From contig JAUQQN010000001.1 in NCBI GenBank assembly GCA_030549845.1, positions 234,838 through 298,837 of the forward strand: a stretch of DNA of 64,000 nucleotides, in the 5' to 3' direction. Position numbers and translations under genes: made by a program. Positions 2,097-59,149 of this stretch are shown here, in pieces (the stretch's first letter is position 1; the number at the start of each line of letters is the position of its first letter). This DNA comes from Patescibacteria group bacterium. Lineage in GTDB: Bacteria; Patescibacteriota; Minisyncoccia; UBA6257; HR35. The notes under the pieces are model-generated. The model was given only the letters and a program-made list of their open reading frames with translations. It made no database searches and was not told the origin of the DNA.

Positions 2097-3122
2097 TTAA
2101 AATAACTCTGACCAAGTTGCAATTGCTTTTTTTAATTTTTTGAAATAATTTATCTTTATGTTTAATTTTTCAGCAATTTCTCGATAACAAGTTTTAAAAT
2201 CGCTTTTAGTCAATTTTATCTCATTTATATATTTCCACAAATATTCATTAATTTTTATCCCTTTTCTCTCTTTTTCTAAATTTTTATAAGGATCACTTGC
2301 TCGATCATGCCAAATAACCGGATAGCCTGAAGTAATTCTATAACCCAGATGATCACAAATTTTTTTTACGAAAATTCCTGCCCAAATATCATCAAATCTA
2401 TCAACCCCCCAAGATTTTTCATTTTTATCTTTGCCCATTAACATAAAATACATTGCTGGGGTTAATTCTCGTTTCCAAGCTAGATTCATACCACACATTG
2501 GAAAATATTTTCCTACAGGAATAATTTGTTGAATAAAATAATTTTCAATTTTGGGGAATTTTTTAAATTTTAATTGAGTAATAGCATCGAAATCTGGAAT
2601 ATTGGCCCATAAACCATGATTTAAAATAATTTTATTTGAATCAATAATATCTTCCACCTGTTTATAAGGTAATCCTCTTGGCCTAATATTACCTTTTAAT
2701 CTGATAGTTGAAACCCATTTTATTTCCTGATATGAATTCTTAAACAATGCATCATAATGAGATTTAATAAAATTATTCTTATTAAAGTTTTTAATATAAT
2801 TCTCTAATGGGTAACAATCATCGTCTAGAGCTATTATCATATCACTTTTCATCTGATATGCTTTCCAAAAACCATAACTTTTAATTGCTGAAGTTCTTCT
2901 TGGAATAATCCAACTATCTTTCCCTAAATCTTTTTCTATATCCTCCCAACTGTAATGAAAGATTGGAAATTTTAAATTCTTATTTATTTCAAAAGATTTT
3001 ATAGGATTATCTTCAATAATAATTAAATTAATTTTATATTTATCAAAAACTTCTTCCCATTCACCAATAAATCTTCTTATAGAATTTTCTCTTATTGTTG
3101 GTACAACCACTGAAATTTTCAT
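2097..3122 (-). CDS. RGP/GT75-family protein, homolog of reversibly glycosylated polypeptide / UDP-arabinopyranose mutase
   Basis: Blocks collinear with plant RGP1: VVVPTIRE (cf. DIVIPTIRN), ALDDDCYP (cf. IDDDCFV), [16 protein letters not shown] (cf. HGLWLNIPDYDAPTQL), [25 protein letters not shown] (cf. [26 protein letters not shown]), [19 protein letters not shown] (cf. RYDDMWAGWCIKVICDHLG), [20 protein letters not shown] (cf. [20 protein letters not shown]). Confidence 0.75.
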   Translation of the reverse strand: [341 protein letters not shown]

Positions 3123-3143: not shown

Positions 3144-3626
3144 TTATAAAAATAATAAACCTATACCATAATTAAACTTATCAAAAATTATCTCGTTAAT
3201 TCTGTAGCGATTTTTAAGTACTGACCAAAATTTAGGCACTTCAATATCTTTCCTTAAAGGGTCTTTATTTATAATATCATGAAAAGCAATAATTCCTCCT
3301 TTTCTAACTAAAGGACTATACATTTCGAAATCTTTTTTAACTCCTTCATAAGTATGATCACCATCAATAAAAAGAAAATCTAATTGATTACCGCTTAAAA
3401 TATTTTTAACTTCTTCTAGGGTTTCTTGGTTATGAGAGTCTTTTCTTAAAAGAAGAAGATTTATTCTATTAATAGGCCGCTTCGTAGCTTTAATCAAAAA
3501 AATTTTCAAACCATAATTTTTAAGAACAAAAATTGATTTTTTAATTAATCTTAACATCTTGAGGTTTACGTAAATATTCTTAAACCAATAACTCCAATTT
3601 TTTCTTTCATTATTAAATTTTATCAT
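3144..3626 (-). CDS. Class I SAM-dependent methyltransferase-like protein (TylF/MycF, Methyltransf_24-like), possibly degenerate at the N-terminus
   Basis: C-terminal LDFLFIDGDHTYEGVKKDFEMYSPLVRKGGIIAFHDI matches the metal-binding FIDGDH...GG(I/V)IxFHD signature of macrocin/cephalosporin-type O-methyltransferases. No clear glycine-rich SAM loop. Confidence 0.5.
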   Translation of the reverse strand: MIKFNNERKNWSYWFKNIYVNLKMLRLIKKSIFVLKNYGLKIFLIKATKRPINRINLLLLRKDSHNQETLEEVKNILSGNQLDFLFIDGDHTYEGVKKDFEMYSPLVRKGGIIAFHDIINKDPLRKDIEVPKFWSVLKNRYRINEIIFDKFNYGIGLLFL

Positions 3627-3755
3627 AGAAAAATATTGGAGTTTAGCCTTTAAAATAAATAAAAATCTATTCCTATTTTAAGGATTTCCCATCTATCCAT
3701 TGAACAATACTATTGTAATATTCTTAATAATATTGGAGTACTAACGCAAAAATAT

Positions 3756-3781
3756 TTTCTATATTTCTATAGAAAAATAGA
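3756..3781. promoter_or_regulatory. Copy A of a conserved 26-bp imperfect palindrome TTCTAWATTTCTATAGAAAAWTAGAA (perfect core TTTCTATAGAAA at 3763-3774)
   Basis: The same element occurs three times in the window (also at 6723-6748 and 7119-7144). All three sit in intergenic DNA upstream of minus-strand gene starts. Confidence 0.6.
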
Positions 3782-4022
3782 ATTAGGTATATCATTTTTT
3801 TATTTTTTCAATTCCTTAAGAAAAACAAAGGGTTAACTTATAGCCGAAAATTAATTAAGAATTTAAGTCTGAATTCAGGAGAATATTTCTTTAAATATTT
3901 TTTTATTTTTGTTATCAATCTTATTTTTAATTAAAGACAAAACTACCATATATACTTTAATATAAGAATGGTTAATTTAAAAATCTAATTCTCTTTTGTT
4001 AATTTATTAAAAAGCTAAAAAT

Positions 4023-4967
4023 TTATTCTAAGTTTTCTTTGAACCATTCAACTGTAATTTTTAAGCCTTCATCTAAAGATACTTTTGGTATCCAACCTAA
4101 TTCTTTTTTGGCCTTAGAATAATCTAAGCAACTTCTTCTTTGTTCTCCAGGTTTTCTAGGTCCATGAATTTTTTTACAATTTGAACCAGTTAATTGTTTT
4201 AACTTTAGAAAAATTGTATTAATTGTTGTTTCTTTACCAGTCCCAATATTATAAACTCCGATCTTATTCTTCTTTATTGCTAAAATAAAAGCATTAACAA
4301 CATCATCAACATAAACAAAATCTCTAGTTTGTTTTCCATTACCATTAATTATTGGTTGGTCACCTCGAAGCATTTTATCACAAAAAATAGCAATAACGCC
4401 AGCTTCCCCTTTTGAGTTTTGTCTTGGCCCATAAACATTAGCTAACCTTAAAGCAATGTAAGGGATTTTAAAAACTTGAAAATAATAATTTAAATATTTT
4501 TCTACAGTCAATTTCTCAATTCCATAAGGGGAAAGAGGAAATTCAGGATAGCTTTCTGGAGTAGGAATAATTTTAACATCTCCATAAATAGCTCCACCAG
4601 TTGAAGCAAAAACAATTTTTGTGATTTTATTGTAATTTTTATAATGATATAATTTAGCGAAACTTTCAATAATATTTAATGAACCTAAAATATTTATTTC
4701 AGCGCTTTTAATAGGATTTTCAACTGATTTTCTAACATCAATTTGGGCTGCAAGATGATAAATTATGTCTGGTTTTTCTTTCTTAAATATTTCAAAAATT
4801 TTAGATGAGCAAATATCAATTTTATAAAATCTTGCTTTTTTATTTAAATTTTCTTTTTTACCTGACGAAAGGTTATCTATAATAATTACTTTGTGCTTTT
4901 CCTTAATTAGTCTATCAACTAAATGCGAACCTATAAATCCTGCTCCACCTGTGACTAAAATTCTCAT
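4023..4967 (-). CDS. NAD-dependent epimerase/dehydratase (UDP-sugar 4-epimerase-like, GalE family)
   Basis: MRILVTGGAGFIGSHLVDRL Rossmann motif at the N-terminus, and YxxxK in ...YGIEKLTVEKYLNYY. Typical extended SDR. Confidence 0.85.
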   Translation of the reverse strand: MRILVTGGAGFIGSHLVDRLIKEKHKVIIIDNLSSGKKENLNKKARFYKIDICSSKIFEIFKKEKPDIIYHLAAQIDVRKSVENPIKSAEINILGSLNIIESFAKLYHYKNYNKITKIVFASTGGAIYGDVKIIPTPESYPEFPLSPYGIEKLTVEKYLNYYFQVFKIPYIALRLANVYGPRQNSKGEAGVIAIFCDKMLRGDQPIINGNGKQTRDFVYVDDVVNAFILAIKKNKIGVYNIGTGKETTINTIFLKLKQLTGSNCKKIHGPRKPGEQRRSCLDYSKAKKELGWIPKVSLDEGLKITVEWFKENLE

Positions 4968-5956
4968 TTTTGTAAAAGTTTAATCCACTTATTTTTAAAT
5001 TTTAATGCTTTTTTAAAAGAAAGTTCAATACCTGTTTTTAAATCTATTTTTGGCTCATAGCCTAAAATATTTTTAATTTTTGATAAATCTGGTTTTCGAA
5101 ATTCAATATCAGTAAATATATCTCCTCTTTCTTTTGTTGGCAAGTAAATGACATCAATATCTTCATGTAAAATTTTTAATTTTTTAGCAATTTTAATCAT
5201 TAAATCTTTTAGCTCATTAATAGAATAGATTTCTTTGTCATTACCAATATTAAAAGTTTCTTTGCATTTATTTTTTATTAAATACTTTACCCCTAAAATA
5301 AATCCTTTAACTGTATCATCAATATAACAAAAAGCTCGTTTTTGATTCCCGTGTCCAAAAATTGTGATAGGTTTTTTAAAAATAATTGAATATAAAAAAC
5401 TTGCAAAAACACGCGATGGTTTTTTTAAATCTACACCGAACCCATATGTATTAAATATTCTAAAAATAATAAAGGGTAAATTTGAAAGTCGTATAACATT
5501 TTCTTCTAAACATTTAACATGGGCATAATTCCACCTATTAGAAAATTCAAATACAAAAAAATCATCTTCTTTAAAACTTTTCTTCTTAAATATCCCTAAC
5601 AAACCGTAAACATCAGAGCTTGATGAAAAAATTATAGGTTTATTATATTTCTGAGCAATCTTGGTTAAAATTAAGGTATTTTTCAAATTCTGAATAACTT
5701 TTTTAAAATTTTTTATTGTTATATCAACTCCAACTATGCTTGCAAGATGAATAATTAAATCTACATTTTTGACTATATTTTCTAAAATATCCTTATTTAT
5801 TTCTGAACGATATATTTTAATATTTGAATTCTTTTCCAATAATAAACCAGTTCCAGAAGAAAAATCATCTAGAATAAAAACAAAATTATTTTGAGATAAT
5901 GCATTTGATAGATAACTTCCTATAAATCCTGCCCCTCCGGTTATAAGAATTTTCAT
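4964..5956 (-). CDS. NAD-dependent epimerase/dehydratase family protein
   Basis: MKILITGGAGFIGSYLSNAL Rossmann motif. The likely start is the internal MKIL at 5956; the ORF is open back to 5998. It overlaps the upstream epimerase stop by 4 nt (operon). Confidence 0.75.
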   Translation of the reverse strand: MKILITGGAGFIGSYLSNALSQNNFVFILDDFSSGTGLLLEKNSNIKIYRSEINKDILENIVKNVDLIIHLASIVGVDITIKNFKKVIQNLKNTLILTKIAQKYNKPIIFSSSSDVYGLLGIFKKKSFKEDDFFVFEFSNRWNYAHVKCLEENVIRLSNLPFIIFRIFNTYGFGVDLKKPSRVFASFLYSIIFKKPITIFGHGNQKRAFCYIDDTVKGFILGVKYLIKNKCKETFNIGNDKEIYSINELKDLMIKIAKKLKILHEDIDVIYLPTKERGDIFTDIEFRKPDLSKIKNILGYEPKIDLKTGIELSFKKALKFKNKWIKLLQK

Positions 5957-5986
5957 ATTGATAAATTTTAACTTAAAATTTTTAAA

Positions 5987-6124
5987 ATGAGTTTGCAAAA
6001 TAGAGATTATTATAAAGAAAAATTAAAAGATATAGAAAGAGAGGAATCAAAAAGGAGCATTTTTGTTATTGGAGTAGTCCTTTTAATAATTTTAGCCTTA
6101 CTTTTAAGTTTGATAATATTTTAG
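5987..6124 (+). CDS. Possible small membrane protein (45 aa), unannotated
   Basis: My translation: MSLQNRDYYKEKLKDIEREESKRSIFVIGVVLLIILALLLSLIIF, with a C-terminal TM helix. It is below the ORF-track size cut-off and there is no homology evidence. Confidence 0.25.
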   Translation: MSLQNRDYYKEKLKDIEREESKRSIFVIGVVLLIILALLLSLIIF

Positions 6125-6131
6125 ATAAAAA

Positions 6132-6653
6132 TCAAATATTTCTATTAATTTCTATTGAATGTTCATTTAGTAATTGAATAATTCGTTTTATTAAGGAATC
6201 TTCATTTGGGAAATCTAAGTATTGAATTTCATCTTTATAAAATGTGCTTAATGCTAATATATGGTAAACAAGACATTGAGAATAAATATTAGGGAATTTT
6301 TCCCTTAAGTTATTAAATTCTTTACTAAATTTCTCAGTTAATTCAGGGCTTTTTTCTAAAATTCCATAAATTTTTGTTTTAAAATTCATTAATTCTTCAA
6401 CAAACCTTTCGTATAACTCATCTTCTTTAAGCTTTTGAATTTTCTTTTTTTCATTTCCTATTATTTGTTCATTATCTTTTAAATTAAACTCTAAAATAAC
6501 TAACAAAAGATTTCTTATATCTTCTTCGCTAATAAGGTTTTCCTTGATCAATCTCTTTACAACACTTTTTATTCCTTCCTTATTTGATGAGTTTATTAGT
6601 TTTTTGTTTTCTGGATGTTTTTTCATTGCCTTAATTATAGCAAAATATAACAA
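6132..6653 (-). CDS. Hypothetical protein
   Basis: 173-aa ORF from the track with no recognisable motif. Palindrome copy B lies about 80 bp upstream. Confidence 0.45.
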   Translation of the reverse strand: MLYFAIIKAMKKHPENKKLINSSNKEGIKSVVKRLIKENLISEEDIRNLLLVILEFNLKDNEQIIGNEKKKIQKLKEDELYERFVEELMNFKTKIYGILEKSPELTEKFSKEFNNLREKFPNIYSQCLVYHILALSTFYKDEIQYLDFPNEDSLIKRIIQLLNEHSIEINRNI

Positions 6654-6722
6654 AAATTACCATAGTGTATTAATAAAATTTTGTTAAGTTTTAAAATTAA
6701 CTCTTCTTTGTACTATTTTATT

Positions 6723-6748
6723 TTCTAAATTTCTATAGAAAAATAGAA
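6723..6748. promoter_or_regulatory. Copy B of the 26-bp palindrome (core TTTCTATAGAAA at 6730-6741)
   Basis: Sequence TTCTAAATTTCTATAGAAAAATAGAA. It sits between the ArsR gene stop (6787) and the start of the 6132..6653 gene. Confidence 0.6.
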
Positions 6749-6786
6749 ATTAAATTTTGGACAGTAAATGTTTGACATTTTTTATT

Positions 6787-7074
6787 TTATTGGTTCTTAA
6801 AAAGTCCTTTATAAAATTCTTCAACTTGGGATAAAACTCTTAAACCTAGCTTTGTTATTTTATAATTAACAATTAAGCCCTCTCTTTTTCTAGAGATCAA
6901 TTGGGCCTTAACTAATCTTTCTAAATGAGGAATTACTGTTTTATAATTTTTCTCCAAAAAATCAGCTATACTTCCTGTATCTCTTTCACCTGAATTTTTA
7001 AGATAAATTAAAATTTTTAATCTAGTTTTATTCCCTAATGCTTTAAATAATGATTCCAATCTTTGCAAGTCCAT
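6787..7074 (-). CDS. ArsR/SmtB-family winged-helix transcriptional regulator
   Basis: LFKALGNKTRLKILIYLKNSGERDTGSIADFLEKNYKTVIPHLERLVKAQLI is a typical ArsR HTH; 95 aa. Confidence 0.75.
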   Translation of the reverse strand: MDLQRLESLFKALGNKTRLKILIYLKNSGERDTGSIADFLEKNYKTVIPHLERLVKAQLISRKREGLIVNYKITKLGLRVLSQVEEFYKGLFKNQ

Positions 7075-7118
7075 ATTGCATTAAAATTTTATTTTATTAT
7101 AACAAATCATTTTTATTT

Positions 7119-7144
7119 TTCTATATTTCTATAGAAAATTAGAA
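7119..7144. promoter_or_regulatory. Copy C of the 26-bp palindrome (core at 7126-7137), about 55 bp upstream of the ArsR-family gene start
   Basis: Sequence TTCTATATTTCTATAGAAAATTAGAA. This is a candidate operator for the adjacent ArsR-family regulator (autoregulation). Confidence 0.55.
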
Positions 7145-7188
7145 AATTAATTTTAAAAATAGTTTAGTAAATTAAATGTATTTAATGA

Positions 7189-8517
7189 TTAAATTGAGGA
7201 ATAAATTTCTTTTAGGGCTTTGATTCCCTTAAAGAACATTTTTTCATCAAAGTTTTCATTAGGTGCATGGACATTGTCGTCAGGTAAAGTAAAACCAGTT
7301 AAAATTATTGGTTTTTTATATATTCTTTGTAAAACCTCAGCAGCTGGTATAGATCCACCAGCACGATTAAAAACAACCTTATTTCTAAAAACTCTCTCTA
7401 GAGCATTTTTTGTTTTAACAATAAATTCATTATTCAATGGAGTATAAAATGGAGCTGCTGAACCTAAAAGTTTTAATTCCCATTTTACTCCTTTTGGTAT
7501 ATTTTTTTTAATAAAATTCTTTACTAGTTTGATTATTTTCTCTGGTTTTTGATATTCAATTAATCTAAAAGAAAATTTGACGGCTGCTTCTTTAGGAATA
7601 ATTGTTTTTACTCCTTCCTGAGTGTAGCCAGATATTATTCCGTTTATATCCATTGAAGGATAAATTTTTGGTGAAAGTGAAGGTTCTTTTTTATCCAATG
7701 GATGGATTAAGTAAAGCTTAGTTTCTTTTAAGATTTCTTTTTCTTTAATACTTGCCAATCTTAGTAGCTCTTTTTCTTTTTTATCAATTTTTCTAACATC
7801 TTCATAAAATCTAGGGATTAATATCTTTCCTGTTTTTAAATCTTTCATTTTTGAAAATAAATCTGCTAAAAATTGAACTGGATTTAAAGCTAAATTTCCA
7901 TAGCTCCCTGAATGTAAATCATATTCTCCAACCTTTATTTTTAATTCAAAATAAACAATACCTCTTAAAGCATAATAAATTGTTGGTACATTCTTTTTAA
8001 TCATCCCAACATCCGTTAAATAAAAAACATCAACCTTTGATAAAACATTTTTTGCTTTTTTAACATATTCTTCAAAATGAGAACTTGCTGATTCTTCTTC
8101 ACCTTCAACCAGAAAAACAATATTATTTTTTAATTTATTTTCTTTAATCAATTCTTCAATTGCAAAAATATTTTGAACAATATGTCCTTTATTATCAGCA
8201 ATTCCTCGACCATAAATTTTTCCATCTTTCAAAGTTAATTTAAATGGTGGTGTTTTCCATTCATTAATTGGTTCTTCTGGTTGAACATCATAATGGCCAT
8301 ATATCCCGATTGTTTTTTTACCACCAATAAATCTATGAGCTAAAACCAAGGGTGGAGAGCTTTTTTCTTGAATTAATTTAACTTTAAAACCAAGAGATGA
8401 AAATTTATTTTTCAAAAATTCTGCAGCTTTTAAAATATCATTAAACCTTTCTTTTTGTGTTGAAACAGAGGGGATTGAAATAAAATCAGTTAAAAAGTTT
8501 AAAATTTCATTTTTCAT
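7189..8517 (-). CDS. M20-family metallopeptidase (dipeptidase / ArgE/DapE/CPG2-like)
   Basis: GIYGHYDVQPEEP ... RGIADNKG ... VEGEEES metal-binding blocks of peptidase family M20. Confidence 0.8.
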   Translation of the reverse strand: MKNEILNFLTDFISIPSVSTQKERFNDILKAAEFLKNKFSSLGFKVKLIQEKSSPPLVLAHRFIGGKKTIGIYGHYDVQPEEPINEWKTPPFKLTLKDGKIYGRGIADNKGHIVQNIFAIEELIKENKLKNNIVFLVEGEEESASSHFEEYVKKAKNVLSKVDVFYLTDVGMIKKNVPTIYYALRGIVYFELKIKVGEYDLHSGSYGNLALNPVQFLADLFSKMKDLKTGKILIPRFYEDVRKIDKKEKELLRLASIKEKEILKETKLYLIHPLDKKEPSLSPKIYPSMDINGIISGYTQEGVKTIIPKEAAVKFSFRLIEYQKPEKIIKLVKNFIKKNIPKGVKWELKLLGSAAPFYTPLNNEFIVKTKNALERVFRNKVVFNRAGGSIPAAEVLQRIYKKPIILTGFTLPDDNVHAPNENFDEKMFFKGIKALKEIYSSI

Positions 8518-11471: not shown

Positions 11472-11980
11472 TTAATCGAATTTTTCAGAGTAGTATTTTA
11501 ACTCATCAAACATACTTAACAAAAATTCTCTATAAGTTTCCTTTTCTTTCTCAAAATTCTGAACATTAGAAAAATAAACAGCATTTCTTAAGGGAATCAT
11601 CGAAAGTTCAATACATACTAATCTTAATTGTTCAACCATTCTTGCGCCACCTAATTGACCAATAGAAACTCCACAAATACCAACTGGTTTATGAGCATAT
11701 TCTTCATAAAAATTATCAAGCAAAAGTTTTAATTCCCCTGGAAAAGAATGATTATATTCTGGAGAAACTATAATGAAACCATTTGCTCTTTTAAAAATAT
11801 CTGAAAGTTTTTTTCTTTTTACTTCATCCATTTCACCAGTAAAAGGAGAATCTAACCAATCTCGGGGTTTAATTAACTCAACTTCAAAACCATAATTTTT
11901 GCTTCTTCAAAAACAAATTCAGCAATTTTTTCTGAATTAGCTCCTCTTCTTCCTGTGCCAAGTATGATTGGAATGTACAT
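11472..11980 (-). pseudogene. NAD(P)H-dependent FMN reductase (flavodoxin-like), interrupted by a -1 frameshift in an A5 run
   Basis: N-terminal MYIPIILGTGRRGANSEKIAEFVFEEAK from the ATG at 11980 hits a stop. In the -1 frame it continues NYGFEVELIKPRDWLDSPFTGEMDEV into the ORF-track 11472..11831 protein. The break is at the homopolymer at 11896-11900; one extra A restores ...EEAKNYGFEV... Confidence 0.6.
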
Positions 11981-12219
11981 AAAAATATTATAAATGAAAT
12001 TTTTTTGAGTTGAGGAACTAAAAATTAATTCTTACCATAAAATTCTATTTCTAAAAATACATTCTAGATTCTAAGGTCAATGATTCCCAAGTAGAGGAAA
12101 TTGTAAAAGTAAAATTTTAGACTTAAGTTTTATTTTTCTTGAATTCTTAAGAAAATAAGAAAAGTAAATAAGAATTAGGGATTTTATTTGTCTTTCAATT
12201 TTAGGCCTAGAATAAAAAT

Positions 12220-14052: not shown

Positions 14053-15303
14053 TTATAAATAAACTTCTTTATAACTTGGTAAGCTTATCAAAACTTTAGT
14101 TCCTTTGCCTTCTTCTGAAGTAATAGAAATTGTACCTTTATGGATATTTATTAGGTTTTTAGCTAAATATAAACCTATACCTGTACCAGTAGGTTTTATT
14201 TCTTTTGCAGACAAAGAGCGATAAAATTTTTCAAACATTTTAAGTAAATCTTTTTCTGAAATCCCAATTCCTGTATCCTCTATTGAAATTTTAACCTCGG
14301 ATTTCTCTTTATCTTTTTCTACTTTTATGTTAATCTCCCCTCCGATTTTATTGTAATCAACTGCATTTTCTATTATAGGGTATAGAGCAAAGAATAAGAT
14401 TTTTTTATCAAAGGGAAATCTTTTTACTTCTTCTTCTATCTCAATATTAACTTTTAATTTTTTTTCATTTATTTCAAAATTTAAAAGCGATAAACAGGAA
14501 AGTATTAATTCTTCAATATCATTTTCTTCTATTGATAATTCTATTTTCTTTTCTTCAACTCTACTTGTTAGTAAAATAGATTCAACTAAAGCTATGGATT
14601 TTGAAATAAGATTTAAAAAATTCTTTATTGACTCTTTTTCTTCTTCTGGTATATTTTCAGACTTTGCTAATGACTCTAAAAACCACCTAATTTGATTCAA
14701 TGGTGTTCTTAAATGATGGCTAATTAAACTAACAAATTCATTTTTATTTTTTATTTCTTTAAATAAGATAGACTTATCGATAATTATTTTTGAATTATAT
14801 TCTTCTTTATCAAAGCGCAATTTTGTTGTAATTAGGTCAAATACTATCTCATCTTTGTAATTTACTTCTACAATGTCTTTATTGTCTTCCCTAGCTTGAA
14901 TTTTAGTTGCGATTAATGATGGAAAAAATACCAAAGAAAGTTTGGTGTAAATAGGATTTTTGGTAACCCAGGTATCTAATTGAAGACTTAAAAGGGCGTC
15001 TTTTTTTAGTCCTGTAAATTCTTCAAAAGCTTTATTTACATAAATTATTTTCATCTCGTTATCATATAAGCATATAGGGGTGTTTATAGCTTCGAGAATA
15101 TTTACAAATTTTTCAAAAGACTTTTCTCTTTTTATAAATAGAAATCTAGAAAAATACAAAATACCGATTATTCCCAAAAATATTAAAACAATATTAGCAA
15201 AAATAACTATTTTTACGTGATTAAACTCCTGCAAAAATAATCCTATTAAATTGAAAACAAGATAAATACCAAAAATAGCAATTAAAAATTGTCTTAAACT
15301 CAT
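14053..15303 (-). CDS. Sensor histidine kinase (membrane, PAS-like + HisKA + HATPase)
   Basis: N-terminal TM helices, H-box SHHLRTPLNQI, and C-terminal G-boxes DTGIGI/GTGIGL. No response regulator is adjacent. Confidence 0.8.
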   Translation of the reverse strand: MSLRQFLIAIFGIYLVFNLIGLFLQEFNHVKIVIFANIVLIFLGIIGILYFSRFLFIKREKSFEKFVNILEAINTPICLYDNEMKIIYVNKAFEEFTGLKKDALLSLQLDTWVTKNPIYTKLSLVFFPSLIATKIQAREDNKDIVEVNYKDEIVFDLITTKLRFDKEEYNSKIIIDKSILFKEIKNKNEFVSLISHHLRTPLNQIRWFLESLAKSENIPEEEKESIKNFLNLISKSIALVESILLTSRVEEKKIELSIEENDIEELILSCLSLLNFEINEKKLKVNIEIEEEVKRFPFDKKILFFALYPIIENAVDYNKIGGEINIKVEKDKEKSEVKISIEDTGIGISEKDLLKMFEKFYRSLSAKEIKPTGTGIGLYLAKNLINIHKGTISITSEEGKGTKVLISLPSYKEVYL

Positions 15304-19241: not shown

Positions 19242-19296
19242 TTTACTAAAGTAGTTATGATAATTAAAAAAGTACAGTTTTCTGCACCTCAGCAAG

Positions 19297-22221
<2,925 letters not shown>

Positions 22222-22421
22222 TTGCTGAGGTACAGAAAACTGTACTTTTCATCAATTACTTTCTTTGTAAATTTAATATAAGGGTGCTATATCCACTTTT
22301 ATTTCTCTAGCTTCTTTGGCTATATTTAGAATAAAAATAAAAGAAAAAATTCAATAACCCTCAAATCTTATCTTTCTTACTAAAATTAATTATATATTAA
22401 ATGTTGATAAATTTCAAGCAA

Positions 22422-27145: not shown

Positions 27146-27814
27146 ATGCAAAAGACAAAACTTCAAAAATTTTCTTTTAAAAATATACTTCTTATAACAT
27201 TCTTATTGATCTTAATTTCTTTCTTTACTTTCTTAATATTCAGTCTTGATTTTGAAATAATAGAAAATAGCAAAATAATTGCCAAAGAGAATTTAATTTT
27301 ATTTCTTCTAACTAAAAATATAGTAGCCAAAAATTTATTTGAACAAGAAGCTGACTTAATTAAGATAAATTATAAATTTGATTTTAGAAATTTCAAAATC
27401 TATGTAGAAAAAATCAAAGAAGAGCCTGTTGCTTTAATATGTTATAAAGATGATTGTTATTTTTTAGGAAAGCATTCTTACATATATAAAAAAAGAAATA
27501 GTTCCTATAAAAATCTTCTTCCAATAAAAAGTTACTATCCTATATATGAAAACTCTTATTTAAAACCGGAGTTAACTAATGCTTTGGTTTTTTTATTTGA
27601 ATATTCAAACTTAAAATTACTGATTTTAAAAGAAATTAAAATACTTTCAAATTTTGATTTACTTGTCAAAACTAAAGATTTTTCTTTCCTCTTAGATCCT
27701 CATAAAAATGTAAAAAATCAATTAAATAAACTTTCTTTCTTTATAGAAAACTACAAAGACACAAATTATTCCTTAATAGATTTAAGAATAAACCACAAAA
27801 TTTTCTTTAAGTAA
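27146..27814 (+). CDS. Hypothetical membrane-anchored protein (possibly FtsQ/DivIB-like)
   Basis: Single N-terminal TM helix followed by a soluble domain. The assignment is weak. Confidence 0.35.
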   Translation: MQKTKLQKFSFKNILLITFLLILISFFTFLIFSLDFEIIENSKIIAKENLILFLLTKNIVAKNLFEQEADLIKINYKFDFRNFKIYVEKIKEEPVALICYKDDCYFLGKHSYIYKKRNSSYKNLLPIKSYYPIYENSYLKPELTNALVFLFEYSNLKLLILKEIKILSNFDLLVKTKDFSFLLDPHKNVKNQLNKLSFFIENYKDTNYSLIDLRINHKIFFK

Positions 27815-33448: not shown

Positions 33449-35127
33449 GTTAAAGTACCTGCAACTCTTTCTACTTCTTCTATTGTTGTTATTTGTTTTA
33501 ATGCTTTTATAAGTCCTGCTTGTTTTAGGTTTATAAACCCATCTTTAATAGCTTGTTCTAGAATTGCGAATTCAGATGGTTTTTCATATATAATTTTTGC
33601 CATATTTTCTGTAATCTTCAAAAGCTCAAATATAGCAACCCTTCCTTTGTAACCTAAATAAAGACATTTTTCACAACCTTTAGCTTTAACTAATTTTATA
33701 TTCTCTAAATCTAGATTTTCTAAAACCTCTTTAGGGACAGTTTTTATAGTGTTTACTATAATATCTTTTAATTTATCATCTGGTTCAAATTCCTCCTTAC
33801 AATAATTACATGCCCTTCTTAATAATCTTTGAGCTATTACTAACCTTAACGCAGGTGGTATTAAGGTTTTTTCCACCCCTAAATCGATAAGTCTTGGAAT
33901 TGCTCCTAATGAATCATTTGTATGTAAAGTTGATAAAACTAAATGACCTGTTAACGAAGCATGAATTGCGATTTCTGCTGTTTCTTTATCCCTTATTTCT
34001 CCTACGAGAATTACGTCTGGGTCTTGCCTTAAAATTGATCTTAACCCATTTGCAAATGTATAATTTTCAGCTTCATTAACTTGGGTTTGCGTAATTCCTT
34101 CTAATTTATATTCTATTGGATCTTCTATTGTGATGATCTTTATTTCTGGTCTTTTAATTTTATTTAATATTGCATATAAAGTAGTGGTTTTTCCTGACCC
34201 AGTTGGCCCGGTATTTAAAATTAAACCATTTGGTTGCCTTATATAATATTCAATTATTTTTTTATCATAATCTTCCAAACCCAAGCTTTCCAAGGGCAAC
34301 ATTATTTTTTCTATATCTAAAATTCTCATAACAATGGTTTCATCATAACTACTTGGAATAGTGCTTACTCTGATTTCTATGTTTTTTTTACCTAAATAAA
34401 TGGAGAATCTTCCATCTTGTGGTTTTTCTGTAATATTTAAATAAAGCCCAGCAAATAATTTGATTCTATTTTTTAAGAGGCCATATATTGATTTATTAAA
34501 ATTTGCAATTTCATACAAAATTCCGTCAATTCTTAATTTAACAACTATATTTTTCTCTGTTGGTTCTAAATGAATATCAGAAGCATCAAATTTAATAGCT
34601 CCACCAACTAAATAATCTAAAATATCAAGTGGGTTTTCTTTTTCGAGTTCTCTTAAAATTTTCTTTAAATCTTCTTTAACCTGAAGAGAATTTAAAATAT
34701 TATTTAATTTTTCTTGATCAATTTCTAGAATTTCTGTATATTTAACTTTTTTGGTTTTAATATACTTATACTCTTGCCAGGCTTTTTCTAGGCTTCTTTT
34801 AGAAACCACTCCTATTTCAACTATAAAATCTTGTTTCTTAAGTTCGTCTAAGAATTTTTTCAGCTCTTTATCTAATGGATTGAGCGCTCCGATTATTAAT
34901 TTTTTCCCATATTTTTCAATGCCTACTATATTTAACTTTTTTGCTATATCTTCTGGAATTATTTTTAATGCATCTGGATCAACTGGATGAAATTTTAGGT
35001 TAAAATATTTTAATTGAAGCATGGAAGCTAATCTTTGTGCTAAGCTTTCTTCTTCCTCTTCTTGTAATTTATTTAAAAATTCTTGTAATTCATCACTCAT
35101 TTCAAAAATAATTATAATTCTTAACAA
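33445..35127 (-). CDS. pilB: Type IV pilus / type II secretion assembly ATPase (PilB/GspE family)
   Basis: Walker A GPTGSGKTTTLYAIL, Asp box, His box (LVLSTLHTND), and a C-terminal tetracysteine CNYC...CEKC. Confidence 0.85.
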   Translation of the reverse strand: MLRIIIIFEMSDELQEFLNKLQEEEEESLAQRLASMLQLKYFNLKFHPVDPDALKIIPEDIAKKLNIVGIEKYGKKLIIGALNPLDKELKKFLDELKKQDFIVEIGVVSKRSLEKAWQEYKYIKTKKVKYTEILEIDQEKLNNILNSLQVKEDLKKILRELEKENPLDILDYLVGGAIKFDASDIHLEPTEKNIVVKLRIDGILYEIANFNKSIYGLLKNRIKLFAGLYLNITEKPQDGRFSIYLGKKNIEIRVSTIPSSYDETIVMRILDIEKIMLPLESLGLEDYDKKIIEYYIRQPNGLILNTGPTGSGKTTTLYAILNKIKRPEIKIITIEDPIEYKLEGITQTQVNEAENYTFANGLRSILRQDPDVILVGEIRDKETAEIAIHASLTGHLVLSTLHTNDSLGAIPRLIDLGVEKTLIPPALRLVIAQRLLRRACNYCKEEFEPDDKLKDIIVNTIKTVPKEVLENLDLENIKLVKAKGCEKCLYLGYKGRVAIFELLKITENMAKIIYEKPSEFAILEQAIKDGFINLKQAGLIKALKQITTIEEVERVAGTLT

Positions 35128-37214
35128 TGAAAATAGGCAAATATAAGTTTATAATCTTAATTGAGCTTTTTTTGTGGTTTCTTTTTATAATTCTCTTACT
35201 CTCTTTAAGTGCTTTTTTACTTTTTGCTGCTTTTACAATCAAAAATTTACCCAATCCTGAGATATTAGCAAAAACCACAACAAGTGGTAGCCTTCAAATA
35301 TACGATAGAACAGGTACTATATTACTTTATGAAGTAGGTTTAAGAAAATATTGGGCAAATTATGAAGACTTTGGAAAAAATATAATTTATGCAACATTGG
35401 CCGCTGAAGATGATTCTTTTTTTGAACATAAAGGAATAAGTATAAAAGGAATTTTGAGATCAATTTGGCTTAATTTAAAGACGAGAAGTTTAACTTATGG
35501 TGGATCAACTATTACTCAACAACTTGCTAGAAATTTATTTTTGACTCAAGAAAAAACTTTATTAAGAAAAATTCAAGAGATTGTTTTAGCAATAGAATTA
35601 GAAAGAAGGTTTTCTAAAGAAGATATTTTGACATATTATTTAAATTCAATATATTATGGAGCAGGGAATATAGGCATAAAAGCTGCTGCTGATTTTTATT
35701 TTAATAAAAATATAAAAGACTTAACATTAGCAGAAGCAGCTACCTTAGCAGCAATTCCAAAGTCACCAAAATATTATGAACCAACAAATGAAAATAATCT
35801 AAAAAGATTAAAAGAAAGAAGGGATTTAATTTTAAAAAGATTATTAGATTTGAAATGGATAAGCGATGATGAGTATACTCAAGCTGTAAACAGTGAATTA
35901 AAAATCACCAAAAAGAAATATACAAAAATTGCTGCCCCTCATTTTGTTATTGAAGTTAAAAAAATATTAGAAAATATGTTTCCTAATAAAAATCTAGAAA
36001 ATTCTGGTTTTAAGGTAATTACAACTTTGAATTATAACTATCAAAAAATTGCTGAAGAAGTTGTTAAAGAAGGAGCATTAAAAAATGAGGAAAAAAGTGG
36101 TGCTAGAAATGCTGCTCTTTTAATGATGGACACAAAAACTGGGGAAATATTAGCTATGGTAGGATCTAGAGATTTTTTTGATGAGTCTATTCAAGGACAA
36201 GTTAATATGACTACTGCACCTCGGCAACCTGGATCTGCATTCAAGCCAATATCATATGTTACATTATTTCAGTTAGGTTATCCGATAGAGACAATAGTTT
36301 TTGATGTGCCTACAAATTTTGGTACTCCAGAAAATCCTTATTTCCCTAAAAATTTTGATGAAAGATTTAGGGGACCTGTAGATTTAAAAACAGCATTAGC
36401 ACAATCTATTAATGTACCTGCTGTTAAAGTATTTTACTTAGCTGGGCCAGAAAGAGTAATAGAAAATGCAAAAAAGTTTGGGATTACAACCTTAAAAGAC
36501 CCTCAGTATTATGGGCTTTCTTTAGCTTTAGGTAGCGCTGAAGTAAAAATGATAGATTTAGTAAAAGCTTATAGTGTATTTGCAAATGATGGAGAACTTG
36601 TAAGTCAAAGTTTAATTTTGAAAATTTATGACCATAACAATAATTTAATTTATGAATATAAACCTGAAAGAAAAAGAGTAATAGATAGTCAGCCAGTTAG
36701 AATGTTAAATTTTATATTAAAAGATTACGAAGCTAGGAGAGGTTTACTTGTTGCTTCTTTACCATTGACCAAAATCGATGATTATGAAATTGCTATAAAA
36801 ACAGGAACTAGTGAATATTATAGAGATGCTTGGACAATTGGCTATACTCCTAATTTTGTTGTAGCAGTGTGGGCAGGGAACACTGATGGAAAACCTACAA
36901 AAAAAGGAGCAAGTATTGTGGCTACCCTTCCTATATGGCATAATTTTGTAAAACAAATTATCAAAGATTATCCAAAAACAAAATTTTTAGAACCATTACC
37001 AGTAAGAGTAAATAAACCTATGTTAAATGGTAAGTGGTATGATGAAATTTACGGGGTTCATGAAATTTTACATTATGTGGATAGAAACAATCCTTTAGGT
37101 CCTATTCCTTCTAACCCCTATAAAGATCCTCAATATATAAAGTGGGAATCTGCTCTCCAAATTTGGCTTAATCAACAAGGATTTTTACTGAATACCCTTC
37201 AAAAAAAACTTTAA
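35127..37214 (+). CDS. Class A penicillin-binding protein (glycosyltransferase GT51 + transpeptidase), PBP1A-type
   Basis: N-terminal TM, then EDDSFFEHKGI and GGSTITQQLARNLFL (GT51 motifs), SAFKP (SxxK) and KTG (KTGTS) transpeptidase motifs. Confidence 0.85.
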   Translation: MKIGKYKFIILIELFLWFLFIILLLSLSAFLLFAAFTIKNLPNPEILAKTTTSGSLQIYDRTGTILLYEVGLRKYWANYEDFGKNIIYATLAAEDDSFFEHKGISIKGILRSIWLNLKTRSLTYGGSTITQQLARNLFLTQEKTLLRKIQEIVLAIELERRFSKEDILTYYLNSIYYGAGNIGIKAAADFYFNKNIKDLTLAEAATLAAIPKSPKYYEPTNENNLKRLKERRDLILKRLLDLKWISDDEYTQAVNSELKITKKKYTKIAAPHFVIEVKKILENMFPNKNLENSGFKVITTLNYNYQKIAEEVVKEGALKNEEKSGARNAALLMMDTKTGEILAMVGSRDFFDESIQGQVNMTTAPRQPGSAFKPISYVTLFQLGYPIETIVFDVPTNFGTPENPYFPKNFDERFRGPVDLKTALAQSINVPAVKVFYLAGPERVIENAKKFGITTLKDPQYYGLSLALGSAEVKMIDLVKAYSVFANDGELVSQSLILKIYDHNNNLIYEYKPERKRVIDSQPVRMLNFILKDYEARRGLLVASLPLTKIDDYEIAIKTGTSEYYRDAWTIGYTPNFVVAVWAGNTDGKPTKKGASIVATLPIWHNFVKQIIKDYPKTKFLEPLPVRVNKPMLNGKWYDEIYGVHEILHYVDRNNPLGPIPSNPYKDPQYIKWESALQIWLNQQGFLLNTLQKKL

Positions 37215-59077: not shown

Positions 59078-59149
59078 TGCGGCTGGGAGGATTCGAACCT
59101 CCGACCTGGTGTTTATAAGACACCCGCTCTACCACTGAGCTACAGCCGC
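59078..59149 (-). tRNA. tRNA-Ile with anticodon UAU (AUA decoder)
   Basis: Hand-folded. Acceptor GCGGCTG/CAGCCGC, anticodon arm GGTGT-CTTATAA-ACACC, T arm GGAGG-TTCGAAT-CCTCC, discriminator A. Confidence 0.7.

What the first reader, a model, noticed from the sequence alone, without database searches (positions are those of the whole stretch)
3756..7144. Thrice-repeated 26-bp palindrome upstream of minus-strand genes; candidate operator of the adjacent ArsR-family regulator
The element TTCTAWATTTCTATAGAAAAWTAGAA (perfect 12-bp core TTTCTATAGAAA) occurs at 3756-3781, 6723-6748 and 7119-7144, with 23 of 26 positions identical in all three copies. Each lies in an intergenic region 55-140 bp upstream of a minus-strand start (the methyltransferase-like gene, a hypothetical gene, and the ArsR-family gene itself).
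This pattern is what an autoregulated repressor with a small regulon looks like. The core also embeds TATAGAAAAAT, which could double as a -10 element.
Basis: seen in the sequence. Interest (0 to 1): 0.55.

Follow-up and report, generated by a model that had tools for sequence, protein, structure and literature searches.

The report
Operator sites of an ArsR-type autoregulator
The three 26-bp palindromes are real and are very probably the DNA-binding sites of the small ArsR-type regulator encoded next to them. The same protein-and-palindrome pair recurs across at least 79 species of the little-studied Patescibacteria and appears to be undescribed, but the mechanism is a textbook one.

Summary
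TTCTAWATTTCTATAGAAAAWTAGAA occurs three times (3757-3782, 6723-6748, 7119-7144) and nowhere else in the 64 kb, where 0 copies are expected by chance.

The element is four TTCTA units in the order two forward, two reversed (5-3-5|5-3-5, also readable as 12-2-12). The window is a 27% GC patescibacterial genome.

- The motif occurs in at least 79 patescibacterial species and is always intergenic (0 of 130 sites inside genes).
- The gene most often beside it, together with a 570-aa Cys-rich protein, is the orthologue of the window's 95-aa ArsR-type protein.
- All 12 family loci retrieved through the protein alone carry the motif just upstream of the regulator gene and again at or after its 3' end.
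- Regulator subfamilies with different recognition helices have different palindromes in the same two positions.

The protein has the canonical ArsR/SmtB fold (pLDDT 95) but no Cys and one His, so it has no canonical metal site.

Site 3 overlaps the -35 position of an extended -10 promoter, so autorepression is likely. Sites 1 and 2 lie further from any predicted promoter.

Binding, the sign of regulation and the signal are untested. This is a new, uncharacterised member of a known kind.

The parts
7119..7144 (.). Site 3. The 26-bp four-unit palindrome lies 44 nt upstream of the regulator ATG and 44 nt after the stop of the M20 peptidase gene. It is the proposed autoregulatory operator.
   Evidence: Exact match. 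On the minus strand its last unit plus one base, TAGAAA (7123-7118), is the -35-position hexamer of the best promoter-like hit in 3500-7300. An orthologous site is present in all 6 close orthologue loci.
7096..7104 (-). Extended -10 element TGTTATAAT of the predicted regulator promoter. It lies 16 nt downstream of the TAGAAA hexamer and 21 nt upstream of the ATG.
   Evidence: Promoter scan: 10 of 12 matches plus the TG; sequence read. This is a consensus match only. Promoter-like hits are not enriched over shuffles in this AT-rich region.
6787..7074 (-). Gene for the 95-aa ArsR/SmtB-type winged-helix protein, the proposed binder of the palindrome.
   Evidence: Pfam HTH_5 scores 31.1 bits (cut-off 22) and HVO_A0114 scores 28.3 (cut-off 27.6). 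PDB profile hits include HlyU at 4e-12, CadC, CzrA and NolR. The AF2 model has pLDDT 95.3 with the order a1-a2-a3-a4-b1-b2-a5. Foldseek TM is 0.78-0.85 to Mb0332 and CzrA. The sequence has 0 Cys and 1 His.
6723..6748 (.). Site 2. The palindrome lies 38 nt after the regulator stop codon and 96 nt upstream of the ATG at 6626 of the 164-aa hypothetical gene. It is the conserved second site that brackets the regulator gene.
   Evidence: Exact match. A site at or after the 3' end of the regulator gene is found in the window-class loci L095, L118, L119, L121, L122, L123 and L124, and overlapping the last codons in the majority class.
6132..6626 (-). 164-aa hypothetical protein (173 aa if read from the TTG at 6653). 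It is a candidate regulated gene with no family match. TGCTATAAT at 6642-6634 lies 7 nt before its ATG, which suggests a leaderless promoter.
   Evidence: The same gene order is seen in L123 and L124.
3757..3782 (.). Site 1. The palindrome lies in the 396-bp gap between the epimerase/dehydratase gene (stop at 4023) and the methyltransferase-like ORF (ATG at 3626), and 56 nt upstream of a short ORF starting at 3700.
   Evidence: Exact match; sequence read. No orthologous locus covering this gap was recovered.
3144..3626 (-). Methyltransf_24-like ORF followed by two glycosyltransferase genes (2097-3122 and 1124-2122). This is the candidate operon downstream of site 1. The ORF matches only the C-terminal half of the domain.
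   Evidence: Pfam hit covers profile positions 56-105 of 105. The short upstream ORF MDRWEILKIGIDFYLF* lies in another frame.

Best explanation
The 26-bp palindrome is the cognate DNA site of the 95-aa ArsR/SmtB-type winged-helix protein encoded at 6787-7074.

The site consists of four TTCTA units with 8-bp spacing within each half, two forward and two reversed. This is formally a 12-2-12 inverted repeat and probably holds two dimers (inferred).

The regulator gene is bracketed by two sites. Site 3 overlaps the -35 position of the gene's own extended -10 promoter, so the bound protein should hinder RNA polymerase and repress its own synthesis (inferred from geometry). Site 2, just after the stop codon, is the conserved second bracket site. 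It may help repression by cooperating or looping with site 3, 396 bp away, or it may control read-through into, or transcription of, the 164-aa gene. Site 1 puts a third transcription unit, the methyltransferase-like and glycosyltransferase genes, under the same protein.

The protein lacks the canonical metal sites of the family, so the signal that releases it from DNA, if there is one, is unknown.

Shown here: the repeat; its restriction to intergenic DNA; its association with this protein family across about 79 species in both search directions; co-variation of helix and site; and the protein fold.

Inferred: binding, stoichiometry, repression, looping and regulon function.
For: Statistics of the repeat:
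- 3 copies against 0 expected.

Starting from the motif:
- At least 117 loci and about 79 assemblies, nearly all labelled Patescibacteria, carry it.
- 0 of 130 sites lie inside genes.
- The recurrent neighbours are the ~90-aa ArsR-type family (16 loci by clustering, 28 by tblastn) and a ~570-aa Cys-rich protein (18-20 loci).

Starting from the protein:
- 6 of 6 close orthologue loci have the site upstream and downstream of the gene.
It ends 6-10 nt before the ATG in five loci and overlaps the called ATG in L127.
- The same six loci have a second site with 2-3 mismatches over the last codons, and nothing else in 17-20 kb.
- Synteny around the gene is conserved, so it is chromosomal rather than mobile.

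Co-variation of helix and site:
- Helix xKxx[IV]PHLE[KR]L goes with TTTCTA units in 6 of 6 cases.
- Helices ending S/A-[AQ]-H go with ATTCTA units in 20 of 20 cases.
- Helices with Q-H go with CATTCTA units in 5 of 5 cases.
- Paralogue L044 (helix YQSGAVH) is bracketed by TTATA-unit palindromes, and L116 (helix FVTIASH) by ATGACATTAT/ATAATGTCAT.

Protein:
- ArsR/SmtB by sequence and by fold.

Promoter geometry:
- The best promoter-like hit in the region has its -35 hexamer inside site 3.
- Orthologues L121 and L107 likewise have TGnTAnnnT 11-14 nt after the site.
- In the majority class the unit TAGAAT sits where ordinary genes of the same genomes have their -10, 5-10 nt before the ATG. Shine-Dalgarno motifs are rare: 2 of 48 genes in the window and 11 of 95 in relatives.
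Against: - No binding, footprint or expression data exist.
- Sites 1 and 2 are not placed to occlude a promoter. Site 2 is centred about 110 nt upstream of the predicted leaderless start of the 164-aa gene, and site 1 lies 24-39 nt upstream of the nearest -10-like hexamers.
- In some relatives the downstream bracket site lies between convergent genes, where there is no promoter to control (L095, L118, L119).
- Across all loci, sites are not depleted in convergent gaps: 14 of 106 against 50 of 483 in the background. The gene calls behind this count are crude.
- 46 of 129 sites sit inside longer perfect palindromes whose outer arms differ from site to site, which a plain operator model does not predict.
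- The helix/site co-variation rests on a few clades, so on few independent events.
- The regulon is functionally mixed, and no signal-sensing site is visible.
- The NCBIfam ArsR/SmtB model scores 52.7 bits, just under its cut-off of 55.
Confidence: 0.78

Rival explanations
1. The palindromes are a REP-like dispersed family of structured extragenic elements (DNA or RNA hairpins acting in termination, mRNA stability or chromosome organisation). The winged-helix protein whose gene they bracket is their dedicated binding or architectural protein, not a classical regulon repressor. The layout resembles a REPtron, but there is no transposase.
For: - The sites are strictly intergenic.
- The gene is bracketed by two copies in nearly all lineages.
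- 36% of sites are embedded in longer perfect palindromes with site-specific outer arms, a few with A-run/T-run flanks like bidirectional terminators.
- Sites occur between convergent genes.
- One locus has a tandem array of 5 copies with a period of about 71 bp (L122).
Against: - The window copies form only weak AU-only hairpins (-6.8 to -8.1 kcal/mol), lack a U-tract, and two of the three fold in a shifted register.
- Palindromy extends only 0-2 bp beyond the core in the window.
- Site positions are stable and orthologous: upstream of the regulator in 12 of 12 loci and upstream of the 570-aa gene in 18-20 species. There are no extra copies in six syntenic 17-20 kb regions.
- No nuclease or transposase gene is associated.
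- Extra units are added in 8-bp phase (L119, L123), which fits protein units rather than a stem.
- This rival still has the ArsR-type protein binding the palindrome, so it differs from the main explanation only in what the binding is for.
Confidence: 0.1
2. The palindrome is itself a promoter module, a bidirectional -10-bearing element recognised directly by RNA polymerase or a sigma factor. The neighbouring regulator is incidental.
For: - In the majority class the unit TAGAAT matches the -10 consensus at 5 of 6 positions.
- It lies 7-10 nt before the ATG, exactly where leaderless genes of these genomes have their -10.
Against: - In the window class the unit is TAGAAA, which lacks the final T of a -10.
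- The site lies 41-56 nt from the ATG in WIN, L095 and L107, 26 nt in L121 and 77 nt in L119, with separate TGnTATAAT elements between site and ATG in the loci read.
- A promoter does not need four units in two orientations.
- This model does not explain why the sequence changes with the recognition helix of the adjacent protein.
- It does not explain sites between convergent genes.
Confidence: 0.05
3. The palindrome is the target of a different protein, for example a site-specific recombinase, a partition protein or another regulator. Alternatively it is a chance AT-rich repeat.
For: - The genome is 27% GC, so AT-rich words recur. The 12-bp core alone is not significant.
- AspA, a centromere-binding ArsR-like protein, is among the structural neighbours.
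Against: - The full 26-mer never occurs in shuffles.
- It is conserved in about 79 species.
- No recombinase, ParA or ParB gene lies next to the sites in the window or in the six 17-20 kb loci.
- The only DNA-binding family that recurs beside the site is the ArsR-type protein.
- No copy occurs in 2.9 million viral contigs.
Confidence: 0.04

Closest known systems
ArsR/SmtB-family autorepressors with 12-2-12 inverted-repeat operators (SmtB, CzrA, CadC). What these proteins do on DNA is from established knowledge of the family.
   Same: - Same fold and size, with TM 0.78-0.85 to CzrA, Mb0332 and CadC and profile E-values of 1e-8 to 1e-7.
- The operator is a 26-bp inverted repeat that can be written 12-2-12.
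- It lies in the regulator's own promoter region.
- The length and repeated units suggest more than one dimer per site.
   Different: - There is no alpha3N or alpha5 metal site: 0 Cys and 1 His.
- No metal-efflux or metallothionein gene lies downstream.
- The half-sites are tandem TTCTA units in 8-bp phase rather than TGAA/TTCA-type arms.
- A second operator brackets the gene at its 3' end.
- The family is confined to Patescibacteria.
- The NCBIfam family model scores just below its cut-off.
Non-metal ArsR-type regulators: HlyU (Vibrio), NolR (Sinorhizobium), PagR (Bacillus anthracis) and the SdpR autorepressor family
   Same: - These give the best sequence matches among solved structures: HlyU at 4e-12 over the full length.
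- The SdpR-family model scores E=5e-11.
- They are small, lack metal sites and bind AT-rich palindromic sites. NolR and SdpR autoregulate (established knowledge).
   Different: - Identity is only 20-30%, and the SdpR model scores 42 bits against a cut-off of 100.
- There is no redox-active Cys, unlike the Cys-dependent sensors of this family such as BigR and SqrR.
- No SdpI-like membrane partner gene lies adjacent.
- The operator sequence and four-unit layout are unrelated to the published NolR or HlyU sites, as far as I recall. This was not tested here.
AspA, the ArsR-like centromere-binding protein of Sulfolobus plasmid pNOB8
   Same: It is a ~90-aa ArsR-like winged helix that binds a palindrome and can occupy multiple or extended sites. 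It is a structural neighbour.
   Different: No ParA or ParB partner genes are present. The gene is chromosomal with conserved synteny. The sites sit at gene starts.
REPtrons: a RAYT transposase gene bracketed by its cognate REP palindromes, which are also dispersed in intergenic DNA
   Same: A gene is bracketed by copies of a palindrome that is otherwise dispersed only in intergenic regions. Some copies are embedded in longer hairpins.
   Different: The bracketed gene encodes a 90-aa DNA-binding domain with no HUH nuclease. Copy number is low, and positions are orthologously conserved.

Membership tests
ArsR/SmtB family of transcription regulators | Sequence membership: Pfam HTH_5 (PF01022) and NCBIfam NF033788 | tested here: inconclusive
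   Pfam HTH_5 scores 31.1 bits, above its cut-off of 22. NCBIfam HTH_metalloreg scores 52.7 bits, just below its cut-off of 55. The PDB profile search hits only ArsR-family chains at the top, with E down to 4e-12.
ArsR/SmtB family of transcription regulators | Winged-helix fold in the order a1-a2-a3-a4(recognition)-b1-b2-a5 | tested here: met
   The AF2 model has pLDDT 95.3 with H3-13, H16-28, H33-40, H44-56, E60-65, E68-73 and H75-92. Foldseek gives TM 0.85 to 3gw2, about 0.8 to CzrA, and hits CadC, NolR, SqrR and HlyU.
ArsR/SmtB family of transcription regulators | Homodimer that binds an inverted-repeat operator in or near its own promoter (autoregulation) | tested here: inconclusive
   A 12-2-12-type palindrome lies upstream of the gene in 12 of 12 protein-selected loci and overlaps the predicted -35 or -10. 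Dimerisation, binding and repression were not measured and cannot be with these tools.
ArsR/SmtB metal sensors (SmtB, CzrA, CadC, ArsR) | Metal-binding site: alpha3N Cys motif (ELCVCDL-like) or alpha5 His/Asp/Glu cluster | tested here: not met
   The window protein has no Cys and a single His, H50 in the recognition helix. This is read directly from the translation. The alpha3 segment is TGSIADFL, and alpha5 has no His.
SdpR-family autorepressors | NCBIfam NF033789 above its cut-off, and an adjacent SdpI-like membrane immunity gene | tested here: not met
   The model scores 42.4 bits against a cut-off of 100. The neighbours are an M20 peptidase and a soluble-looking hypothetical protein.
AspA-type centromere-binding proteins | Encoded in a partition cassette with ParB-like and ParA genes | tested here: not met
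   No ParA or ParB domains occur among the neighbours in the window or in six 17-20 kb loci with conserved chromosomal synteny.
REP/RAYT (REPtron) systems | The bracketed gene encodes an HUH (Y1) transposase. The repeats are numerous and variable in position. | tested here: not met
   The bracketed gene is a 90-95-aa winged helix. Only the two bracket sites occur in each of six syntenic 17-20 kb regions, and only 3 in the 64-kb window.
Intrinsic terminators | Stable G+C-rich hairpin followed by a U-tract | tested here: not met
   The hairpins are AU-only at -6.8 to -8.1 kcal/mol and are followed by A-rich sequence on the gene strand. The terminator scan does not flag them.

The most novel reading that the evidence does not exclude
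This may be a Patescibacteria-wide master regulator system with an unusual design.

A sensor-less 90-aa ArsR-type protein has a four-unit operator that brackets its own gene. In most lineages the second copy is written into the last codons (..QFVRIIE*). In those lineages the operator also serves as the -10 element (TAGAAT) of leaderless promoters, so promoter and operator are one and the same palindrome.

The protein and the palindrome diversify together into paralogue-specific pairs. Many copies have grown into long perfect palindromes, which points to a structural or mutational process beyond plain operator function, such as template switching or hairpin formation.
Probability: 0.3. Interest if true: 0.65.

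Novelty: new member of a known kind. Interest (0 to 1): 0.45.

Why it matters
Almost nothing is known about gene regulation in Patescibacteria (the candidate phyla radiation), because they are largely uncultured.

If this assignment holds, it supplies a conserved regulator family and a predictable operator:
- 3447 sequence clusters at 90% identity, annotated only as 'ArsR family', 'winged helix' or 'hypothetical'.
- A core regulon: the regulator itself, a 570-aa Cys-rich protein of unknown function, and several tRNA synthetase, purine and folate genes.
- A simple in vitro test system consisting of a 95-aa protein and a 26-bp duplex.

It also shows, as a by-product, that these genomes almost lack Shine-Dalgarno sequences and place the -10 element 6-9 nt before the start codon. 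That affects gene calling and promoter prediction in this group.

For this window alone the result is ordinary: a small autoregulated repressor with three sites.

Tried and rejected
- **Chance repeat.** Rejected by shuffles and the PWM scan.
- **Further or degenerate copies in the window.** None found. Half-site hits are at background level, 20 against 10 expected, and 6 of the 7 perfect ones come from the three sites.
- **Archaeal TATA/BRE reading.** Rejected: the window carries a bacterial 23S rRNA.
- **Terminator or RNA hairpin.** Weak AU stems and no U-tract.
- **Known RNA families.** Rfam finds only rRNA and tRNAs.
- **Mobile element or phage origin.** Conserved chromosomal synteny and 0 hits in viral contigs.
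- **Metal sensor.** No Cys and one His.
- **Known named motif.** No paper contains TTCTATAGAA in a regulatory context, and none links CPR/Patescibacteria with an ArsR regulon or with leaderless/Shine-Dalgarno usage.
- **Function of the 570-aa Cys-rich target and of the 164-aa neighbour.** No Pfam, NCBIfam or PDB match.
- **The search for related loci with the broad alignment.** It failed for lack of conserved blocks. With the narrow alignment it gave only 3 loci, one of them a distant GC-rich ArsR without the motif.
- **Variant palindrome TTCTT..AAGAA at 12136-12161.** Single copy, absent from all other loci. Left as a side note.

Full report
**Observation.** The pattern TTCTAWATTTCTATAGAAAAWTAGAA matches exactly three times, at 3757-3782, 6723-6748 and 7119-7144. 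None of 100 dinucleotide-preserving shuffles gave a match. A looser pattern that fixes only the four pentamers (TTCTA-N3-TTCTATAGAA-N3-TAGAA) with up to three mismatches returns the same three places, against 0.08 expected. A symmetric PWM built from 19 sites of this subclass scores the three copies at 39-43 bits. The next independent hit scores 5.7 bits, within the range of shuffles. The copies agree at 24 of 26 positions. The 12-bp core alone would not be significant. All three copies lie between ORFs.

**Anatomy.** The element is four TTCTA pentamers in the order forward, forward, reverse, reverse, with 3-bp spacers inside each half (5-3-5|5-3-5). The direct repeats are in 8-bp phase, and the whole can also be written as a 12-2-12 inverted repeat. 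About three more bases on each side are conserved (ATTTTCTA...TAGAAAAT). In relatives, extra TAGAA units are added in the same 8-bp phase (L123 and L119).

**Context in the window.** The window is bacterial (23S rRNA at 19286-22229), about 27% GC, and by its relatives belongs to the Patescibacteria. Read along the minus strand, the order is:
- M20 peptidase (7189-8517)
- site 3
- the 95-aa ArsR-type gene (6787-7074)
- site 2
- a 164-aa hypothetical gene (6132-6626)
- two nucleotide-sugar epimerase/dehydratase genes (4964-5998 and 4023-4967)
- a 396-bp gap holding site 1
- a methyltransferase-like ORF (3144-3626)
- two glycosyltransferase genes

**From motif to genes.** By accession prefix these come from about 79 assemblies. 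Nearly all are labelled Patescibacteria (Nomura-, Campbell-, Wolfe-, Jorgensen-, Brenner- and Paceibacterota, Minisyncoccia). The exceptions are a few records labelled only 'bacterium' and two contigs of about 1 kb binned as Nanoarchaeota and Omnitrophota. No site lies inside a called gene. Clustering the ORFs that start next to a site gives two large families:
- a ~90-aa ArsR-type protein that includes the window's protein (16-17 loci, site 7-56 nt before the ATG)
- a ~570-aa Cys-rich protein without any Pfam, NCBIfam or PDB match (18-20 loci, site mostly 6-15 nt before the ATG)

Smaller recurrent targets, recognised from their N-termini, are IleRS (3 loci), PurQ, FolA, an M24 peptidase and DUF5674 (2 loci each). 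Single cases include PurD, RibE, Fmt, Pgk, TrpRS, SOD, a nitroreductase and a HolB-like protein. Of 105 site-to-gene pairs within 150 nt, 55 have the ATG within 15 nt of the site.

**From protein to motif.** This direction is not biased by the motif.
- The window protein has three near relatives in the protein collection. Their contigs, plus two metagenome loci found through the protein, all carry the palindrome upstream of the regulator gene. The copy is cut by the contig end in L122 and L124. All carry it again 38-99 nt after the stop codon (L118, L119, L121, L122, L123, L124).
- A distant (29% identity) ArsR from a GC-rich contig has none (L120).
- A profile of the family finds 3447 clusters with E <= 1e-8, almost all 90 aa long. 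Sources name them only 'ArsR family', 'winged helix-turn-helix' or 'hypothetical'.
Each locus (17-20 kb) has a site with 0-2 mismatches. In five loci it ends 6-10 nt before the regulator ATG, and in L127 it overlaps the called ATG. Each also has a second site with 2-3 mismatches that encodes the C-terminus (..QFVRIIE*, TTCTACAATTCGTTAGAATTATAGAA). No other site is present.
- Gene order around the regulator is conserved (Obg, GatB, aldolase, regulator, FAD oxidase, L25, SLT, L31, RF1, ATP synthase). It is therefore a stable chromosomal gene.

In total, 12 of 12 protein-selected family loci have the palindrome in front of the gene.

**Co-variation of helix and site.**
- The window subclass (recognition helix YKxx[IV]PHLE[KR]L) always has TTTCTA/TAGAAA units: 6 of 6 cases.
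- All other members, with helices such as FKNISAHINKM, have ATTCTA/TAGAAT: 20 of 20.
- Members with Q before the conserved His have CATTCTA units: 5 of 5.
- L044 is a paralogue in the same genome as a canonical pair (L077) and has a different helix (YQSGAVHTQRL). It is bracketed by a different palindrome of the same layout, TTATA-TTA-TTATA|TATAA-TAA-TATAA. The upstream copy lies inside a 42-bp perfect palindrome.
- L116 is another divergent member (FVTIASHLQKL). It has ATGACATTAT-CA-ATAATGTCAT 10 nt before its ATG and a related palindrome over its last codons.

These are few independent events, but they all point the same way: the palindrome follows the protein.

**The protein.** Pfam HTH_5 (31.1 bits against a cut-off of 22) and HVO_A0114 (28.3 against 27.6) both pass. 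NCBIfam's ArsR/SmtB model scores 52.7 against 55, and the SdpR autorepressor model 42 against 100. A family profile hits HlyU (4e-12, full length), CadC, CzrA, NolR, PagR and AspA among solved structures. An AlphaFold2 model built from 46 family sequences has pLDDT 95.3 and the canonical a1-a2-a3-a4-b1-b2-a5 order. Its nearest solved folds are Mb0332 (TM 0.85), CzrA (about 0.8), CadC, NolR, SqrR and HlyU. The window protein has no Cys and one His, in the recognition helix. The alpha3N and alpha5 metal sites that define the metal sensors are therefore absent.

**Promoter geometry and likely mechanism.**
- *Leaderless genome.* Only 2 of 48 window genes have a Shine-Dalgarno-like motif, and many have TATAAT 6-9 nt before the ATG. 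The majority-class genomes behave the same way: a Shine-Dalgarno motif in 11 of 95 genes, and TAnnnT ending 5-10 nt before the ATG in 47 of 95, with TAGAAT itself used at ordinary genes. Leaderless or near-leaderless mRNAs therefore seem to be the rule.
- *Majority class.* The outer TAGAAT of the palindrome sits exactly where a -10 element would be. Operator and core promoter coincide, and a bound protein must block RNA polymerase.
- *Window class.* The unit is TAGAAA, a poor -10, and the site lies further upstream.
- *The window's regulator gene.* The best promoter-like hit in 3500-7300 is TAGAAA (7123-7118, the last unit of site 3), a 16-nt spacer, then TGTTATAAT (7104-7096). L121 and L107 show the same order, with the site followed 11-14 nt later by TGnTAnnnT. 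I infer autorepression by occlusion of the -35 and upstream region. Activation from this position cannot be excluded.
- *Site 2.* It is centred about 110 nt upstream of the predicted leaderless start of the 164-aa gene (TGCTATAAT at 6642-6634, ATG at 6626).
- *Site 1.* It lies 24-39 nt upstream of the nearest -10-like hexamers and 130 nt from the methyltransferase-like ATG.

The roles of sites 1 and 2 (auxiliary or looping operator, roadblock, upstream control site) are open.

**What does not fit a plain operator.**
- 46 of 129 sites in other genomes lie inside longer perfect palindromes, with 4-14 extra complementary base pairs per side. The outer arms differ from site to site even within one genome, and a few have A-run/T-run arms like bidirectional terminators. 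The window copies extend by only 0-2 bp.
- With crude gene calls, sites are not depleted in convergent gaps (14 of 106 against 50 of 483). In L095, L118 and L119 the downstream bracket site lies between the regulator gene and a convergent GalU gene.
- L122 has five copies in a tandem array with a period of about 71 bp, between the regulator gene and a Sua5/MGMT-domain gene.

Possible causes are template-switch extension of a perfect palindrome, a hairpin-related function, or cooperative multi-site binding. I could not discriminate between them.

**Rivals.**
- A REP-like structural element with a dedicated binding protein (confidence about 0.1) would still have this protein binding this palindrome. 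It is disfavoured by stable orthologous positions, low copy number, weak AU hairpins and the absence of a nuclease gene.
- A pure promoter element fails for the window class, and it does not explain the co-variation with the helix.
- Another binding protein, a recombination site or a chance repeat are not supported.

**Comparison with known systems and novelty.** In working principle this is a standard ArsR/SmtB-type autoregulator with a 12-2-12 inverted-repeat operator. By sequence and fold it belongs to that superfamily, but not to the metal-sensing branch and not to the SdpR, AspA or REP/RAYT systems (see the membership table). I found no paper that describes this motif or a regulon of this kind in Patescibacteria. 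I therefore rate it a new, uncharacterised member of a known kind. Its unusual features are the sensor-less minimal protein, the four-unit operator, the bracket of two sites around the gene (one often inside its last codons), and fusion with leaderless promoters in most lineages.

**Limits.** Everything about binding, stoichiometry, the sign of regulation and the physiological signal is inferred. The genome scan was truncated, so site counts per genome are lower bounds. The full genome of this organism was not available.

Noticed in passing
window, all genes (e.g. 7189-8517, 6132-6626, 27146-27814, 35127-37214, 47957-48595): Shine-Dalgarno motifs are almost absent: 2 of 48 genes have one. Many genes have TATAAT, often preceded by TGn, 6-9 nt before the ATG. 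Leaderless mRNAs seem to be the rule. Related genomes L125-L130 show the same pattern: a Shine-Dalgarno motif in 11 of 95 genes and a -10-like hexamer 5-10 nt before the ATG in 47 of 95.
   Followed up: partly
window 12136-12161: TTCTTGAATTCTTAAGAAAATAAGAA is a single perfect palindrome with the same 5-3-5|5-3-5 layout but with TTCTT/AAGAA units. It lies between tRNA-Ser and a leaderless-looking gene. It is absent from all 130 fetched loci. It may be a diverged site, the site of another regulator, or chance.
   Followed up: partly
window 3627-3700 and 3144-3626 (minus strand): The methyltransferase-like ORF matches only the C-terminal half of Methyltransf_24. A 16-codon ORF starting at 3700 (MDRWEILKIGIDFYLF*) in another frame looks like the start of the missing SAM-binding part. 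This suggests a frameshifted gene or an assembly error.
   Followed up: no
window 11472-11979 (minus strand): A flavin-reductase-like gene starts at 11979 (MYIPIILGTGRRGANSEKIAEFVFEEAK..), breaks after an A-run near 11900, and continues in the ORF 11472-11831. This is a second apparent frameshift.
   Followed up: no
L122 362-674 (contig JBEQAR010000014.1): Five copies of the palindrome form a tandem array with a period of about 71 bp, between the regulator gene and a Sua5/YrdC plus MGMT-domain gene. The last copy lies just downstream of a TGTTATAAT element.
   Followed up: partly
46 of 129 sites in L001-L117 (e.g. L020 4897, L050 1562, L069 1646, L077 7133, L033 3956): The conserved 26-bp core is embedded in longer perfect palindromes, with 4-14 extra paired bases per side. 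The outer arms are unique to each site. A few have A-run/T-run arms. This remains unexplained.
   Followed up: partly
L044 4685-4725 and 5060-5105; L116 500-525 and 780-810: Divergent paralogues of the regulator are bracketed by different palindromes in the same two positions. L044 has TTATA units and L116 has ATGACATTAT/ATAATGTCAT.
   Followed up: partly
L011, L023, L049, L057, L080, L081, L089, L093, L125-L130 (3' ends of the regulator genes): In the majority class the second operator copy is written into the last codons of the regulator gene (..QFVRIIE* = CAA TTC GTT AGA ATT ATA GAA TAG). In the loci read, the next gene's ATG follows a few to about 30 nt after the stop codon.
   Followed up: yes
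about 20 loci, e.g. L047 2774-, L028, L078, L093 5864-7561: A ~570-aa Cys-rich protein has zinc-ribbon-like CxxC pairs at both ends. It has no Pfam, NCBIfam or PDB match and is the most frequent target of the motif. It is not encoded in this window.
   Followed up: partly
L107 660-1259; L012 551-; L122 752-1516; L075: Several genes next to sites deal with damage or oxidative stress: an Ogg-type 8-oxoguanine glycosylase directly after the regulator gene, an HhH-GPD protein, an MGMT-domain protein and a superoxide dismutase. This is only a weak hint about the regulon's theme.
   Followed up: no
window 59078-59149: A tRNA-Ile with anticodon UAU, which is unusual for bacteria.
   Followed up: no
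L049 (JBBTBN010000028.1, 1177 bp) and L075 (JAUXSB010000007.1, 1070 bp): These short contigs carry the patescibacterial motif, and L049 also carries the regulator gene. They are binned as Nanoarchaeota and Omnitrophota, which is probably mis-binning.
   Followed up: no
window 15139-15159 (minus strand): Three direct TTCTA-like units in 8-bp phase (TTGTA TTT TTCTA GAT TTCTA) lie inside ORF 14053-15303. There is no inverted partner, so this is probably chance.
   Followed up: no
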